This document shows positions 3,975 through 7,454 of a stretch of 64,000 nucleotides of DNA, in pieces. The stretch comes from an uncultured Gammaproteobacteria bacterium (lineage in GTDB: Bacteria; Patescibacteriota; Microgenomatia; UBA8517). The stretch covers positions 67,734 through 131,733 of the forward strand of contig CAYRUS010000002.1 of assembly GCA_964427735.1 (NCBI GenBank). Direction: 5' to 3'. The notes beneath the pieces were generated by a model. It was not told where the DNA came from. It did no database searches and worked only from the letters and a program-made list of their open reading frames with translations. The stretch's first letter is position 1. Each line of letters opens with the position of its first letter. The position numbers and the translations under genes were made by a program.

Positions 3975-5648
3975 TCACAAAGTATCATCTGTTAAGTTAA
4001 TATTAGTCCTCATAACCCCATAATCAAGATTGTTAACCTCACCACTACCATCGAGGTCAACTACGGTATTTGCGGTACCGAATGAGGTTAGTAAATGGAG
4101 TGTATAATCTATGTCATTTACTACTCCATCACCATTGAAGTCTCCTCCAAGTAATGGACTATCAGCAAAATTAAGTGTTAGAATTCCGAATCCAACATTT
4201 ATTGGAGACGATGATGACCCGAATTTTTTAGCTAAATATCCTGGAGCTTTAACTAATAAAATATAATTACCCGTCTCCATAAATACCTGCGTAGCACCAC
4301 TTGACTTTGTGCTTGTGTTAACTACTGGATAAATAGTACCATCTGTACTTTTTCGTGATAAGGTTATTGACTTTGTCCTATCTACTCCTGGTCTTGTAAC
4401 CCCCTGGAAACCTAATTGTAAAGTTACAGATACAGCACTTACAGGAGTCGGAGTCAATACAGGTGTTGGTGTAACAGGAAGAGGTGTTGGTGTTACTCCT
4501 GACCCTGGAGTTGCAGTCGGCGTGGGTGTGGCGGTTGGTGCTATAGGAGTAGGCGTTCCACCGAAAAGAACCTCGATGTCTGTGCTCTCAACTGATTCCA
4601 AAATATCAACAGGGTCAGTTGTTGTACCACTTAAAACTACATTGCTATCATTTCTTGAACCAGGTGAAAAATTATAAGTAAGCTGGGTTCTTAAAGCTTC
4701 GACTGAAGAATTTGGTAATGGGTTAAACATTATAGTACCTACAACCACCCCAGACCCATTCACAGGTGTACCTGAAGTACTTGAACCAATATTGGCTGAT
4801 AACTCTATTACACCATTTGAATTATCAACCTCCCGAAGTGGGAAAGATGAAAATGAAGTTTCAGAACCCTCAACAGATATTCCACTCAATAAAGTATTAT
4901 CATAATGAACCTTTGCATCTACGCCATCAACATCTTGTCCTCCTGTATCCAACATCACATCTATCGCAAACTGACTCCCCACCTTCTGAGGATTCGCTGG
5001 CCTTGGATTCGAAAAATATAACCTCGCCCCTGATGAACTAACCTGATTCAACTCTAACGTTGCATTCCCCGCTGATATGTCTGTTATCGCCTCTGAACTC
5101 GAATTCACAAACTGCATACCCTCTACCTCAAACTCCATCTGGGTCGTCTCTGCTGCTGACCCCACTGCTCTTACATCAAAACTCGCAAACTCAATTATCC
5201 CATCTACTGTCGGTGACCCAGGTGACCTACCTAATACTATTACCACCTCTCCTGTACTGTTCGCTTGACCCATCGATGTCTTCTGTATTACTGTCCCTAA
5301 CTCTGTGGCTGTACTTATCTCACTCGCTAAATTGACCTTCGTATTGTCAAATCTAAACTCCACCCTCGCAAAATCAACCGCTGCATTCTGACCAGTATCT
5401 ACCATCACTGACATCCTACTGTCCGGAGGTAAACTCTGCATCGACGGTGAAAAATATACACTTATCGGAAACACTGCCGCCCCCGTAAAATACCTATAAC
5501 CCCTCTCCACTAAATATGCACCGGCAAAAATACCTACAACAAGAATTAGTGATGAGATTAATCTAAAGGCTGAATTTGCTCTAAATTGACGTCTTAATAA
5601 CTTATATTGTTCAATTATACTATCGGAGAGGTTTTTATTTTCGGGCAT
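3975..5648 (-). CDS. N-terminally anchored surface protein: TM helix, two cohesin-like domains, PT-rich linker, Ig/CarboxypepD_reg-like domain and a C-terminal type-I dockerin.
   Basis: Dockerin duplicated Ca-binding segments GDFNGDGVVNDIDYTLHLL and DLDGSGEVNNLDYGVM. Linker PTPIAPTATPTPTATP. Cohesin-like blocks FAIDVMLDTGGQDVDGVDAKVHYDNTLL. Confidence 0.6.
   Translation of the reverse strand: MPENKNLSDSIIEQYKLLRRQFRANSAFRLISSLILVVGIFAGAYLVERGYRYFTGAAVFPISVYFSPSMQSLPPDSRMSVMVDTGQNAAVDFARVEFRFDNTKVNLASEISTATELGTVIQKTSMGQANSTGEVVIVLGRSPGSPTVDGIIEFASFDVRAVGSAAETTQMEFEVEGMQFVNSSSEAITDISAGNATLELNQVSSSGARLYFSNPRPANPQKVGSQFAIDVMLDTGGQDVDGVDAKVHYDNTLLSGISVEGSETSFSSFPLREVDNSNGVIELSANIGSSTSGTPVNGSGVVVGTIMFNPLPNSSVEALRTQLTYNFSPGSRNDSNVVLSGTTTDPVDILESVESTDIEVLFGGTPTPIAPTATPTPTATPGSGVTPTPLPVTPTPVLTPTPVSAVSVTLQLGFQGVTRPGVDRTKSITLSRKSTDGTIYPVVNTSTKSSGATQVFMETGNYILLVKAPGYLAKKFGSSSSPINVGFGILTLNFADSPLLGGDFNGDGVVNDIDYTLHLLTSFGTANTVVDLDGSGEVNNLDYGVMRTNINLTDDTL
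4915..5522. repeat. 608-bp segment 100% identical to 6721..7328. Direct repeat within the tandem paralogs at an offset of 1806 bp.
   Basis: Direct sequence comparison of the boundaries. Identical antisense ORF pairs in the track (5060..5335 = 6866..7141 and 5077..5268 = 6883..7074). Flanks diverge immediately outside. Confidence 0.85.
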
Positions 5649-5813
5649 ATTATAACAAGGTCTATACTTTTTATTACATATATTTTCACAGTCCGCAAGT
5701 AGTAATTTTTATTTTGGTAAAAGAAGATTAAATTTTGATAAAAACATCTAACAACTAATCTTTAATACTGTATTTTATCTTACTACTCTGTTAGATTTAT
5801 AAAATTATATTTA

Positions 5814-7454
5814 TCAGAAGCTATCGTCTACTAGATTGAAGTTTGTCCTCATTACACCATAATCCAAGTTATTAACCTGACCGCTTCTGTCTAAGTCTAC
5901 TAAGTCGCTTGATTTACCATAAGATGTTAGAAAGTGAAGTGTGTAATCAATATCATTTACTACTCCATCGTTGTTAAAATCTCCACCTAACAAAGGTGTG
6001 GAGCTAAGATTTACTAGTGTTGTTGAACTGCCAATAACAATTGGGCTAGAGGTAGTTCCAAAAACTCTTGCTAAATATCCCGGGGAATCAATTCTAAGCC
6101 TGTAATTGCCAGCATTTAAAGATACAAGTGCAACACCGTTTGTGTTTGTACTCGTGTTTAAAGAAAACTCATCTGTACCAGAGGAAGTTCGTCCATTTAT
6201 TGTAACTCCTCTTGATCTATTGGCTCCTGATCTTGTAACTCCTTGGAAACCTAATTGTAGGTTAACAGACACTCCTCCAATTGGGGTCGCAGTTACTATT
6301 GGAGTAGGAGTTGCTGTTGTTCCAGGAACTGGTGTTGGTGTTGTCCCTACAACGGTCGGTGCAGGAGTAGCAGTAGATGTTGCTGTAACCACGATGGAAG
6401 CATTACTTACAGACTCCAAAATATCAACAGGGTCAGTTGTTGTACCACTTAAAACTACATTACTATCATTTCTTGAACCAGGTGAAAAATCATATGTTAA
6501 GTTAGTACCAGAAGATGCACTGGTTGGATTATATAATATAGTACCTACAACTAAATCTGATCCGTTAACAGGTGAAGTAGATGTGCTGCTACCTACATTT
6601 GCAGAAAGAACAACCAATCCGTTTGTATTATCTACATTATTAGCTGGGAATGAACTAAACACACCTCCACTGGTTTGTACGGTAACTCCACTTAAAATGG
6701 TTTTGTCAAAGTGAATTCTAGCATCTACGCCATCAACATCTTGTCCTCCTGTATCCAACATCACATCTATCGCAAACTGACTCCCCACCTTCTGAGGATT
6801 CGCTGGCCTTGGATTCGAAAAATATAACCTCGCCCCTGATGAACTAACCTGATTCAACTCTAACGTTGCATTCCCCGCTGATATGTCTGTTATCGCCTCT
6901 GAACTCGAATTCACAAACTGCATACCCTCTACCTCAAACTCCATCTGGGTCGTCTCTGCTGCTGACCCCACTGCTCTTACATCAAAACTCGCAAACTCAA
7001 TTATCCCATCTACTGTCGGTGACCCAGGTGACCTACCTAATACTATTACCACCTCTCCTGTACTGTTCGCTTGACCCATCGATGTCTTCTGTATTACTGT
7101 CCCTAACTCTGTGGCTGTACTTATCTCACTCGCTAAATTGACCTTCGTATTGTCAAATCTAAACTCCACCCTCGCAAAATCAACCGCTGCATTCTGACCA
7201 GTATCTACCATCACTGACATCCTACTGTCCGGAGGTAAACTCTGCATCGACGGTGAAAAATATACACTTATCGGAAACACTGCCGCCCCCGTAAAATACC
7301 TATAACCCCTCTCCACTAAATATGCACCTGAGATAATTCCTGCTATTAAAAGAAAAGATGCTAATATCTTTAAAGCATTGTTTACACGGAGTTCATGTCG
7401 AAGTAATTTATATCTATTAATAACTCTTTGTTGAAAATCGCTTTGTTGTGACAT
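5814..7454 (-). CDS. Paralog of 3975..5648: TM anchor, two cohesin-like domains, PT linker and a C-terminal dockerin.
   Basis: Start placed at MSQQSDFQQRVINRYKLLRHELRVNN, which aligns with the paralog N-termini (ORF-track start 7535 is 27 codons longer). Dockerin GDFNNDGVVNDIDYTLHFL and DLDRSGQVNNLDYGVM. About 203 aa identical to the neighbouring paralog. Confidence 0.6.
   Translation of the reverse strand: MSQQSDFQQRVINRYKLLRHELRVNNALKILASFLLIAGIISGAYLVERGYRYFTGAAVFPISVYFSPSMQSLPPDSRMSVMVDTGQNAAVDFARVEFRFDNTKVNLASEISTATELGTVIQKTSMGQANSTGEVVIVLGRSPGSPTVDGIIEFASFDVRAVGSAAETTQMEFEVEGMQFVNSSSEAITDISAGNATLELNQVSSSGARLYFSNPRPANPQKVGSQFAIDVMLDTGGQDVDGVDARIHFDKTILSGVTVQTSGGVFSSFPANNVDNTNGLVVLSANVGSSTSTSPVNGSDLVVGTILYNPTSASSGTNLTYDFSPGSRNDSNVVLSGTTTDPVDILESVSNASIVVTATSTATPAPTVVGTTPTPVPGTTATPTPIVTATPIGGVSVNLQLGFQGVTRSGANRSRGVTINGRTSSGTDEFSLNTSTNTNGVALVSLNAGNYRLRIDSPGYLARVFGTTSSPIVIGSSTTLVNLSSTPLLGGDFNNDGVVNDIDYTLHFLTSYGKSSDLVDLDRSGQVNNLDYGVMRTNFNLVDDSF
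6721..7328. repeat. Second copy of the 608-bp identical segment (see 4915..5522).
   Basis: As above. Confidence 0.85.

What the first reader, a model, noticed from the sequence alone, without database searches (positions are those of the whole stretch)
4915..7328. 608-bp 100%-identical block shared by two neighbouring paralogs, indicating recent gene conversion
Positions 4915..5522 and 6721..7328 are identical at every base I compared. The match is supported by identical antisense ORFs in the track. Flanks diverge abruptly at both ends (5523 g vs 7329 t, and 4914/6720 upstream). The block encodes the TM-proximal region and the first cohesin-like domain (~203 identical aa). The rest of the two genes is only ~60-70% similar. 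A second near-identical ~75-bp patch exists at 4596..4680 vs 6417..6500. This mosaic pattern is typical of ongoing intergenic conversion that homogenises or shuffles surface-protein modules. It is also a likely assembly-collapse hazard.
Basis: seen in the sequence. Interest (0 to 1): 0.55.

Follow-up and report, generated by a model that had tools for sequence, protein, structure and literature searches.

The report
Gene-conversion tract shared by two surface-protein paralogs
Two neighbouring genes for membrane-anchored cohesin/dockerin surface proteins of a probable Patescibacteria (CPR) bacterium share a real, perfectly identical 608-bp segment copied by recombination; this is an ordinary process, but the copied segment has an oddly G-rich codon usage found nowhere else in the window.

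Summary
Window 4915-5522 and 6721-7328 are identical at 608/608 bases. They are direct repeats 1806 bp apart, inside two colinear tandem paralogs on the minus strand: A (3975-5648) and B (5814-7535). Outside the block the genes are about 50-60% identical in DNA and synonymous sites are saturated (dS about 1.6).

Independent k=31 Logan assemblies of two public runs break exactly where two-copy exact repeats predict (4626, 5493, 6444, 7299). One 952-bp contig links the B C-terminus, the spacer and the A N-terminus. So both genes, their tandem order and the upper block junctions are real. Only the identity of the block interior rests on the source assembly.

The best explanation is non-reciprocal homologous recombination (gene conversion), resolved in two conserved motif islands (GAYLVERGYRYF and LDTGGQDVDGVDA). 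The tract covers the end of the TM helix, all of cohesin-like domain 1 and the first ~38 residues of domain 2. It therefore ends at a motif island inside domain 2, not at the domain 1/2 boundary.

One feature is new. The tract core (codons 47-233) has third-position G of 42% (39% over the whole block) against about 14% elsewhere, third-position C of 4%, and coding-strand GC skew of +0.41. It is the most G-rich stretch of the 64 kb. This fits either import from an unsampled donor or a long-lived, biased conversion domain. Symmetric GC-biased conversion does not fit.

This is a new member of a known kind, of moderate interest.

The parts
4915..5522 (-). Identical block, copy in gene A (codons 43-245: end of TM helix, cohesin-like domain 1, first ~38 aa of cohesin-like domain 2)
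   Evidence: 608/608 identity to 6721-7328. Domain limits come from the AF2 model and the cohesin fold matches.
6721..7328 (-). Identical block, copy in gene B (codons 70-272 of the 573-aa ORF)
   Evidence: Logan contig L020 ends at 7299 = 7328-29, the break expected for k=31 at a repeat edge.
4950..5510 (-). G-rich, GC-skewed core of the tract in A (codons 47-233). The same core lies in B at 6756-7316.
   Evidence: Change-point analysis of third-position GC gives codons 47-233 in A and 74-260 in B. Third positions of the whole block are A29 C4 G39 T29 % against a genome norm of A37 C11 G14 T38. In the core 79/187 third positions are G; in the 16 edge codons of the block 0/16 are (Fisher p=3e-4).
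3975..5648 (-). Gene A (557 aa, = P0001): N-terminal TM helix, two cohesin-like beta-sandwiches, Pro/Thr linker, third beta-sandwich, C-terminal dockerin-like module
   Evidence: (Dockerin_1 E=1.8e-4, below the Pfam cut-off)
5814..7535 (-). Gene B (573-aa ORF, = P0002), with the same architecture. The real start is probably Met28 at 7454: it aligns with the starts of A and C, and AAGGA lies 8 nt upstream.
   Evidence: (the tblastn alignment starts at 7454)
4591..4679 (-). Second, older patch in A, 94% identical to 6409-6497 in B. It encodes the family's most conserved motif (FSPGSRNDSNVVLSGTTTDPVDILESV).
   Evidence: Patch dS is 0.34 against about 1.6-2.2 around it. A/B identity is 94% whereas paralog C is 70% for the same motif (P=1e-8). 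Logan contig L001 ends at 4626 = 4597+29.
6409..6497 (-). Second patch, copy in gene B
   Evidence: Logan contig L019 ends at 6444 = 6415+29.
5649..5813 (.). 165-bp AT-rich spacer between B and A, contained in one independent contig together with the B C-terminus and the A N-terminus
   Evidence: L019 = window 5493-6444, 100% identical, 952 bp, seen in 2 samples; sequence
1..1178 (-). Third paralog C (P0005, 434 aa, cut by the window start), the unconverted comparator
   Evidence: tblastn 54% over A residues 1-358; the full gene is in L001 3449-4753; 57% aa identity to the block
3038..3988 (-). 316-aa ORF that overlaps the end of A by 14 nt and carries one cohesin-like domain related to domain 2 of A. 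A similar small gene follows the long gene in relatives.
   Evidence: tblastn 26% to A residues 207-360; the same arrangement is seen in L002, L003, L004, L005 and L011

Best explanation
The 608-bp block is a genuine two-copy exact direct repeat. It was created by non-reciprocal homologous recombination (gene conversion) between two old, tandem, colinear paralogs. Both encode membrane-anchored surface proteins with this layout: TM helix, cohesin-like dyad, Pro/Thr linker, beta-sandwich, dockerin-like tail.

Shown:
- The identity is exact.
- The flanks are saturated at synonymous sites.
- Both genes, their tandem order and the upper block junctions exist in independent assemblies of the reads.

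Inferred:
- The exchange was resolved inside two short islands that were already conserved at the DNA level among the paralogs. These are GAYLV... at the 5' end and LDTGGQDVDGVDA at the 3' end. That is why identity stops abruptly at those points, and why the 3' end falls inside domain 2 and not at the domain boundary.
- A smaller, older tract lies over the third island (FSPGSRNDSN...), so exchange between A and B has happened more than once.
- The tract core has a G-ending, C-avoiding codon usage that is foreign to this genome. The sequence now shared by A and B therefore most likely came from one of two sources. (i) It entered from an unsampled related donor by recombination in the same islands and was then copied into, or independently installed in, the second paralog (my sub-estimate about 0.45). 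(ii) It is a long-standing self-homogenising unit, because 608 bp of identity is an ideal RecA substrate, and its synonymous sites have been driven G-rich by a strand-asymmetric bias linked to recombination (about 0.3).

Consequences: the two proteins carry the same membrane-proximal cohesin-like domain. In addition, the direct repeats can delete or amplify the 1806-bp unit.
For: - Exact identity and its improbability.
- Colinear codon alignment with no indel at the junctions: block dS is about 0, compared with pS 0.66 / dS about 1.6 and dN 0.36 outside it.
- Incongruent histories of the segments: before the block A~P0003 65%, B~C 60%, A/B 33%; after the block A/B 57-67% against about 50% to all other relatives.
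- Independent Logan contigs from SRR7082966 and SRR7082976 are 100% identical to the window. They end at 4626, 5493, 6444 and 7299, which are exactly repeat edge +/-29 nt for k=31. L019 spans the B C-terminus, the spacer and the A N-terminus.
- In the A-versus-C comparison (a proxy for the unconverted state), DNA identity peaks at aa 44-60, 233-245 and 327-342. These are the two tract ends and the second patch.
- The second patch has dS 0.34. It is 94% identical between A and B, against 70% between A and C.
- Composition: block GC 46.5% vs 34.7% for the window; GC3 0.43 vs 0.21-0.23 in the flanks, 0.19 in C and 0.31 in P0003; none of 547 control windows of 203 codons exceeds 0.335. G3 is 39% and C3 is 4%. 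The edge codons are native-like, 0/16 G3.
- The block is native to the protein family: it aligns throughout with C (57%) and P0003 (53%).
- In a related MAG (L005), neighbouring genes share a 194-nt dockerin module at 97% DNA identity with diverged upstream sequence.
Against: - The interior of the block could not be checked in an independent assembly. A few real differences between the copies could have been erased by consensus or bubble-popping in the source assembly.
- No close strain or species is available; the nearest homologue outside this genome is about 52% identical. So neither the pre-conversion state nor the direction of transfer can be seen.
- The 5' island with native-like composition is only about 12 nt long, which is short for RecA-dependent exchange.
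- For sub-hypothesis (i): no donor, and no relative with comparable codon usage, was found (G3 is 11-26% in all sampled relatives). The block's nearest relative is the genome's own paralog C.
- For sub-hypothesis (ii): no known conversion bias raises G while lowering C on one strand, and the second patch shows no G3 enrichment.
Confidence: 0.85

Rival explanations
1. Assembly artefact. The two copies are similar but not identical in the cell, or the block belongs to only one gene, and the metagenome assembler collapsed or duplicated a consensus into both places.
For: The source is a metagenome-type contig. An exact repeat of 608 bp is longer than short reads. The k=31 assemblies do fragment here. 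The interior of the block could not be retrieved independently.
Against: All four observed contig ends fall exactly 29 nt inside the predicted repeat edges. Both block-to-N-terminus junctions are therefore present in reads from two runs, each with 30 nt of block attached to unique A or B flank. L019 physically links B to A. The only path that uses all the pieces is the published order. Even a hidden 1-2% difference would leave the contrast with about 50-60% flanks intact.
Confidence: 0.07
2. Recent partial tandem duplication or a single unequal crossover, not conversion.
For: The copies are direct repeats in tandem genes with a regular 1806-bp spacing.
Against: A duplication or a single crossover would leave identity running out to one end of the duplicated unit, including the spacer. 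Here both flanks of the block are homologous, colinear and saturated, and the spacer and N-termini are unrelated at the DNA level. An internal patch needs two exchange points, which is conversion or a double crossover.
Confidence: 0.02
3. Symmetric GC-biased gene conversion acting on a long-lived A/B conversion domain explains both the identity and the high GC.
For: GC3 is doubled exactly within the tract. Continuous conversion would keep the copies identical.
Against: The enrichment is for G only. C3 falls from 11% to 4%, Leu uses only TTR, Arg uses only AGR, and third-position skew is +0.82. gBGC should raise G and C alike. The identical edge codons (0/16 G3) and the second patch are not enriched.
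Confidence: 0.05
4. The G-rich, GC-skewed tract is a cis-acting recombinogenic element (G-runs or R-loops on the non-template strand) that actively promotes exchange among the surface-protein paralogs, as proposed for the vls cassettes of Lyme Borrelia.
For: Compared with the genome, the block has GC +12 points, coding-strand skew +0.41, 12 G-runs of 3 or more against 1 C-run, and the highest GGG density in the 64 kb. The vls cassettes show GC 49% vs 28.6%, skew 0.52 and G-runs of 3-5, features thought to be key to conversion (PMC11499132).
Against: There are no silent or promoterless cassettes and no expression site. Both copies are full genes and identical, so the outcome is homogenisation, not diversification. 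There is no canonical G4 motif. Other genes here reach skew 0.28-0.38 at low GC. No relative shows the feature.
Confidence: 0.1
5. An overlapping antisense gene or another nucleotide-level coding constraint causes both the odd codon usage and the conservation.
For: Purine-ending sense codons remove stops from one antisense frame. Two 91-aa antisense ORFs lie in that frame.
Against: Every antisense frame has at least 4 stops within the block. A constraint would slow divergence but would not give 0/608 differences against saturated flanks.
Confidence: 0.01

Closest known systems
Ectopic gene conversion / concerted evolution between bacterial paralogs. Examples: H. pylori babA/babB outer-membrane adhesin paralogs (PMC4552749); prokaryote-wide cases of concerted evolution (PMC6053082); M. 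tuberculosis antigen families (PMC13061034); tufA/tufB and rRNA operons (from my own knowledge).
   Same: An internal tract of near-zero divergence lies in otherwise diverged, colinear paralogs. The genes encode surface proteins. Exchange is limited by homology. Segments have incongruent phylogenies.
   Different: The host is a probable Patescibacteria/CPR organism and the genes are cohesin/dockerin-type. The tract carries a strand-asymmetric, G-ending codon usage that I did not find described for these cases in the papers consulted.
Mosaic genes from interspecies homologous recombination, such as mosaic penA/pbp alleles of Neisseria and Streptococcus (from my own knowledge)
   Same: A block of atypical composition sits within a native gene, with sharp boundaries in conserved sequence.
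   Different: No donor was identified. The same block sits in two paralogs of one genome. At the protein level the block is no more distant from native relatives than the flanks are.
vls antigenic-variation locus of Lyme disease Borrelia (PMC11499132)
   Same: The segment that undergoes gene conversion has a much higher G+C than the genome, a strong coding-strand GC skew and clustered G-runs.
   Different: vls has one expression site plus arrays of silent cassettes that are about 90% identical, and it generates diversity unidirectionally. Here there are two complete, separately startable genes with an identical block. The result is homogenisation, and there are no cassettes.
Cohesin-dockerin scaffoldin proteins of cellulosomes, and non-cellulosomal cohesin/dockerin proteins
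   Same: The predicted tandem beta-sandwiches match solved cohesin dyads and single cohesins (3l8q, 4fl4, 6kgf; TM-score to target up to 0.80). The C-terminus has two DxNxDGxxNxxD-like calcium-loop repeats and a weak Dockerin_1 hit. Relatives hit Pfam Cohesin PF00963.
   Different: A and B themselves do not reach any Pfam cohesin threshold. The proteins have an N-terminal TM anchor and carry cohesin-like and dockerin-like modules in one chain. No cellulolytic context is present. Binding is untested.

Membership tests
Interparalog gene-conversion tract | A run of identity far longer than expected from the divergence of the flanks | tested here: met
   608/608 identical; flanks about 51-52% at the same offset; P about 1e-135, or 1e-83 under the most generous background
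Interparalog gene-conversion tract | Homologous, colinear sequence on both sides of the tract (replacement, not insertion or duplication) | tested here: met
   The codon alignment is continuous across both junctions and the offset of 1806 is kept on both sides. The block aligns with other family members.
Interparalog gene-conversion tract | Phylogenetic incongruence between the tract and the flanks | tested here: met
   Before the block A~P0003 65%, B~C 60%, A/B 33%; block A=B; after the block A/B 57-67%
Interparalog gene-conversion tract | Both copies verified at read level as identical and two-copy | tested here: inconclusive
   The upper junctions and the tandem order are verified by independent k=31 contigs.
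Interparalog gene-conversion tract | Donor and recipient identified | tested here: inconclusive
   The block is equidistant from C (54-57%) and P0003 (50-53%). There is no close outgroup.
Horizontally imported mosaic block | Composition or codon usage atypical for the host, with sharp boundaries | tested here: met
   GC3 0.43 against a control maximum of 0.335; G3 39% vs 14%; change points at codons 47 and 233
Horizontally imported mosaic block | A closer relative of the block exists in another lineage | tested here: not met
   The nearest relative is the genome's own paralog C (57%). No protein with a closer block was found, and no relative has similar codon usage. The clade is very thinly sampled, so this absence is weak evidence.
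GC-biased gene conversion | Symmetric rise of G and C at synonymous sites of the converted region | tested here: not met
   G3 rises from 11% to 39%, but C3 falls from 11% to 4%
vls/pilE-type programmed gene-conversion variation system | Silent, promoterless donor cassettes plus a single expression site | tested here: not met
   A, B and C are all full-length ORFs with start codons and TM anchors. There are no truncated cassettes in the window.
vls/pilE-type programmed gene-conversion variation system | High G+C, coding-strand GC skew and G-runs in the converted region | tested here: met
   GC 46.5% vs 34.7%; skew +0.41; 12 G-runs of 3 or more. The criterion is taken from PMC11499132.
Diversity-generating retroelement (template/variable repeat pair) | Repeat pair differing at adenine positions | tested here: not met
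   There are no differences at all between the copies. No reverse transcriptase appeared among the ORFs scanned, but the whole window was not scanned.
Cohesin domain | Cohesin beta-sandwich fold or a Pfam PF00963 match | tested here: met
   Fold level: the top Foldseek hits are cohesin dyads (E 2e-12) and single cohesins with TM-score to target 0.66-0.80, on a model with mean pLDDT 72. Sequence level: there is no Pfam hit for A or B; PF00963 is precomputed for relatives.
Dockerin type I | Duplicated calcium-binding loop-helix and a Pfam PF00404 match above threshold | tested here: inconclusive
   A scores 22.1 bits against a cut-off of 22.9, and B has no hit. Two DxNxDG-type loops are visible in both sequences. 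Helices are predicted at 512-521 and 540-550.

The most novel reading that the evidence does not exclude
The tract is not a passive product of one conversion. It is a specialised recombination cassette: its synonymous sites have been recoded to a G-rich, C-poor, GC-skewed coding strand with clustered G-runs. Like the vls cassettes of Borrelia, this would make it a hotspot for recombination and keep or exchange the membrane-proximal cohesin-like domain among surface-protein paralogs of an episymbiotic CPR bacterium.
Probability: 0.1. Interest if true: 0.75.

Novelty: new member of a known kind. Interest (0 to 1): 0.42.

Why it matters
Gene conversion between surface-protein paralogs is a well-known route to mosaic adhesins, so the core finding is ordinary. 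Three things still make it useful.

1. It is a clean, independently cross-checked example in a probable Patescibacteria/CPR genome. In that group surface proteins presumably mediate attachment to host cells, and recombination is hard to study because there are no cultures.

2. It shows concretely how such repeats fragment k-mer assemblies, and how the break points themselves can be used to validate a repeat without access to reads.

3. The converted tract coincides exactly with an island of G-ending codon usage and GC skew. That is unexplained. It points either to import of gene segments from unsampled relatives or to a composition-recombination link of the kind discussed for the vls locus. 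Either would inform how ultra-small symbionts vary or coordinate their surface.

Tried and rejected
- Exact-protein look-ups of A and B as I translated them found nothing, although the same sequences are in the protein database as P0001 and P0002.
Exact look-ups of five partial products in the cluster collection found nothing. The block interior therefore could not be verified independently.
- Scans of GTDB genomes and JGI metagenomes for relatives returned only distant loci of 25-50% identity. No sister strain is available to show the pre-conversion state.
- A word-index search with the block alone returned a single 47% hit. The exhaustive search found nothing closer than the genome's own paralog C.
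- NCBIfam gave no hits for the locus proteins.
- Overlapping antisense gene: rejected, at least 4 stops in every antisense frame.
- Canonical G-quadruplex motif: none found.
- Symmetric gBGC: rejected because C3 is depleted.
- DGR: rejected because the repeats are identical.
- Mobile element or intein-like insertion: rejected because the block aligns with all family members.
- Promoter and terminator scans were not above the shuffled expectation.
- Rfam found only two tRNAs.
- GC3 in the near-identical dockerin modules of relative L005 is not elevated. That comparison did not help decide between biased conversion and import.
- A literature search for cohesin/dockerin in CPR, and for the SRA run identifier, gave nothing relevant.

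
Full report
**1. The observation**

A direct comparison shows that window 4915-5522 and 6721-7328 are identical at all 608 positions.

No other repeat longer than 100 nt at high identity exists in the 64-kb window, so this is not a general property of the assembly. At the same register the flanks are only about 51-52% identical. The probability of 608 consecutive matches is about 1e-135 at 60% background identity, and about 1e-83 at the highest local identity seen between paralogs.

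The correct pair is 4591-4679 vs 6409-6497 (offset 1818, 94% identical). It contains exact runs of 47 nt (4597-4643 = 6415-6461) and 28 nt.

**2. What the sequences are**

Both copies lie in minus-strand genes: A (3975-5648, 557 aa) and B (5814-7535, 573-aa ORF). B probably starts at Met28 (7454). That position aligns with the starts of A and of the third paralog, and an AAGGA lies 8 nt upstream.

An AlphaFold2 model of A (mean pLDDT 72) gives these parts:
- an N-terminal helix, residues 7-54, whose hydrophobic stretch at about 27-47 is the membrane anchor;
- beta-sandwich D1, residues 62-200;
- beta-sandwich D2, residues 208-361;
- a disordered Pro/Thr linker, residues 364-402;
- a third beta-sandwich, residues 405-499;
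- a two-helix C-terminal module.

Foldseek against the PDB puts cohesin dyads first (3l8q, 4fl4, E about 1e-12). Single cohesins match with TM-score to target up to 0.80. Pfam gives only a sub-threshold Dockerin_1 hit for A, but the two calcium-loop motifs are visible in both proteins. Relatives carry precomputed PF00963 cohesin hits.

The block encodes residues 43-245 of A. That is the end of the TM helix, all of D1 and the first ~38 residues of D2. The tract therefore does not end at the D1/D2 boundary.

The wider locus contains:
- a third paralog C (P0005, 434 aa, window 1178 to beyond the window start);
- a 316-aa protein with one cohesin-like domain (3038-3988);
- a PGA_cap/CapA-like gene.

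The relatives recovered from genome collections are titled Patescibacteria, or are evidently mislabelled MAGs. The nearest homologue outside this genome is only about 52% identical.

**3. Is it an assembly artefact?**

I could not see reads. The Logan collection, however, holds independent k=31 assemblies of two runs.
- Contig SRR7082966_5504 is 100% identical to window 1-4626 and stops there.
- SRR7082976_94050 (952 bp, seen in two samples) equals window 5493-6444.
- SRR7082966_73970 equals window 7299-16497.

For a k=31 de Bruijn graph, a contig entering an exact two-copy repeat should stop 29 nt (k-2) past the first repeat base, so that it carries 30 nt of the repeat. The four observed ends are 4597+29, 5522-29, 6415+29 and 7328-29, exactly as predicted. 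I predicted the 952-bp contig and its partial protein before the look-up, and both were found.

This shows several things:
- The 47-nt repeat and the upper edge of the 608-bp repeat are true branch points in the reads.
- Both block-to-N-terminus junctions exist.
- The B C-terminus, the spacer and the A N-terminus lie on one molecule.
- The published order is the only path that uses all the pieces.

What remains unverified is the block interior and its lower junctions. A few real differences could have been smoothed away. That would not alter the contrast with the flanks.

**4. Mechanism**

The codon alignment of A and B is continuous through both junctions. Outside the block pS is 0.66 (dS about 1.6, saturated) and dN is 0.36. 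Inside the block there is no difference at all. With about 138 synonymous sites, the block's dS is below about 0.02 at 95% confidence.

Segment histories disagree:
- In the 42 residues before the block, A is 65% identical to P0003 from another organism and B is 60% identical to paralog C, while A and B are only 33% identical.
- After the block, A and B are each other's closest relatives (57-67%).

An internal identical patch between saturated, colinear flanks needs two exchange points. A duplication or a single unequal crossover cannot produce it. This is gene conversion or an equivalent double crossover.

I compared A with paralog C as a stand-in for the unconverted state. DNA identity peaks at residues 44-60 (AYLVERGYRYFTGAA), 233-245 (LDTGGQDVDGVDA, two 13-nt exact runs) and 327-342 (FSPGSRNDSN). 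The first two peaks are the two ends of the tract. The third is the second patch.

The abrupt boundaries are therefore what one expects if exchange is resolved in pre-existing islands of identity, with observed identity running to the outer edge of each island.

The second patch has dS 0.34. It is 94% identical between A and B, against 70% between A and C for the same motif. It is best read as an older, shorter tract, so A/B exchange is recurrent.

In a related MAG (L005), two neighbouring genes share a 194-nt dockerin module at 97% DNA identity with unrelated upstream sequence. Across the family, some members carry a different, canonical-cohesin domain 1 on the same D2-linker-D3-dockerin chassis. 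Module-scale mosaicism is thus a trait of this gene family.

**5. An unreported feature: the tract is a compositional island**

The block has 46.5% GC, against 37-38% for the rest of A and B and 34.7% for the window. It is the most GC-rich 608-bp stretch in the 64 kb.

The excess is at third codon positions:

| Region | GC3 |
|---|---|
| Block | 0.43 |
| Flanks of A and B | 0.21-0.23 |
| Equivalent region of C | 0.19 |
| Equivalent region of P0003 | 0.31 |
| 547 control windows of 203 codons | mean 0.249, sd 0.039, max 0.335 |

The enrichment is strand-asymmetric:

| Region | Third-position base composition (%) |
|---|---|
| Block | A29 C4 G39 T29 |
| 25 other ORFs | A37 C11 G14 T38 |

Other features of the block:
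- Four-fold codon families are 82% purine-ending, against about 50% elsewhere.
- Glu is GAG 12:0 and Gln is CAG 8:2.
- Leu uses only TTR and Arg uses only AGR.
- Coding-strand G is 32.9%. For the richer strand, the window mean is 19.8% (sd 2.6), and the maximum outside the two copies is 27.5%.
- GC skew is +0.41, and +0.82 at third positions.
- There are 12 G-runs of 3 or more against one C-run, but no canonical G4 motif.

Change-point analysis places the G-rich core at codons 47-233 of A and 74-260 of B. The 16 edge codons of the identical block have no G at all at the third position (Fisher p=3e-4). They are the native-like conserved islands.

What this excludes and what it allows:
- No antisense frame is open across the block, so an overlapping gene is excluded.
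- Symmetric GC-biased conversion is excluded by the loss of C.
- No sampled relative uses such codons (G3 is 11-26%).
- An exhaustive protein search finds nothing closer to the block than the genome's own paralog C (57%).
- At the protein level the block is as close to C and P0003 (50-57%) as the flanks are.

Two readings remain.
- **(i) Import.** The core came from an unsampled related donor through the conserved islands and was then installed in both paralogs. For: atypical composition, native-like edges, zero divergence, and a very thin sampling of this clade. Against: two rare exchanges in short homology, and no donor found.
- **(ii) Long-lived conversion domain.** The block is self-sustaining, and an unknown strand-asymmetric bias or selection has recoded its synonymous sites. 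For: 608 bp of identity is an ideal substrate, and the nearest relative is native. Against: no known mechanism, and the second patch is not enriched.

I rate these about 0.45 and 0.30.

**6. Comparison with known systems**

The phenomenon belongs with ectopic gene conversion among bacterial paralogs, especially surface proteins. Examples are the H. pylori bab genes (PMC4552749), the prokaryote-wide cases in PMC6053082, and the M. tuberculosis antigen families (PMC13061034).

High G+C, coding-strand GC skew and G-runs occur together in the segment that undergoes conversion. This is the combination described for the vls cassettes of Lyme Borrelia: 49% vs 28.6% GC, skew 0.52, and features thought to be key to conversion (PMC11499132).

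That is a resemblance only. There are no silent cassettes and no single expression site here, and the outcome is identity, not diversity. Membership in a vls-like system is not supported. The proteins are cohesin-like at the fold level and dockerin-like at the motif level, but binding is untested.

**7. Verdict**

There are three corrections: the patch coordinates, the domain content of the tract, and the 'module shuffling' gloss.

It is a new instance of a known kind. The unexplained G-skewed codon island, which coincides with the tract, lifts it from routine to moderately interesting (0.42).

Noticed in passing
window 4950-5510 and 6756-7316: The core of the identical block has a unique codon usage. 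Over the whole block third positions are G 39% and C 4%; in the core G3 is 79/187 (42%). Leu uses only TTR, Arg uses only AGR and Glu uses only GAG. It is the most G-rich stretch of the window, with 12 G-runs of 3 or more. The cause is unexplained.
   Followed up: yes
window 7454-7548: The annotated 573-aa ORF of gene B probably starts 27 codons too early. Met28 (ATG at 7454) aligns with the starts of A, C and P0003 and has AAGGA 8 nt upstream. A TGTATAAT extended -10-like box sits just upstream of the ATG at 7535.
   Followed up: partly
window 1-1178 (minus strand) and L001 3449-5392: A third paralog C (P0005, 434 aa) is cut by the window start. It has a different, shorter dockerin-like tail. 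It is followed, outside the window, by a 211-aa gene with a weak cohesin hit.
   Followed up: partly
window 3038-3988: A 316-aa ORF overlaps the 3' end of gene A by 14 nt and carries one cohesin-like domain (26% identical to A residues 207-360). The same 'long gene + short cohesin gene' pair recurs in relatives L002, L003, L004, L005 and L011.
   Followed up: partly
window 19827-23798: A 1323-aa protein with a PQQ/BamB-like beta-propeller and an internal dockerin-like segment (Pfam E=6.6e-4; tblastn hit to A's dockerin). It is a possible docking partner for the cohesin-like proteins.
   Followed up: no
L005 6206-6399 vs 8161-8354 (also 775-995, 1207-1370, 9756-9919): In a related Patescibacteria MAG, five neighbouring genes carry a dockerin-like module. 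Two of them share it at 97% DNA identity while their upstream sequence is unrelated. This is a second, independent mosaic of this kind.
   Followed up: partly
proteins P0007, P0010, P0012, P0018 vs gene A: Some family members keep D2, the linker, D3 and the dockerin at about 50% identity to A, but carry a different, canonical-cohesin (PF00963) first domain. Domain 1 is therefore exchangeable, or evolves fast, across the family.
   Followed up: partly
L022 251-1823: The closest Logan homologue of the block (P0022, 47%) is split into two overlapping ORFs at the start of domain 2. This is either a frameshift or pseudogene, or a sequencing error.
   Followed up: no
window 54605-57346: Adjacent genes encode a MATCAP-like carboxypeptidase domain protein and an ATP-grasp (ATPgrasp_ST/RimK-like) protein with a C-terminal Zn_protease domain.
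   Followed up: no
window 1200-2700 and 9300-10200: Several ordinary minus-strand genes (CapA-like, a 139-aa ORF, the sigma-70 gene) have coding-strand GC skew of 0.28-0.38 at low GC. Skew alone is therefore not unique to the block; the combination with high G3 is.
   Followed up: yes
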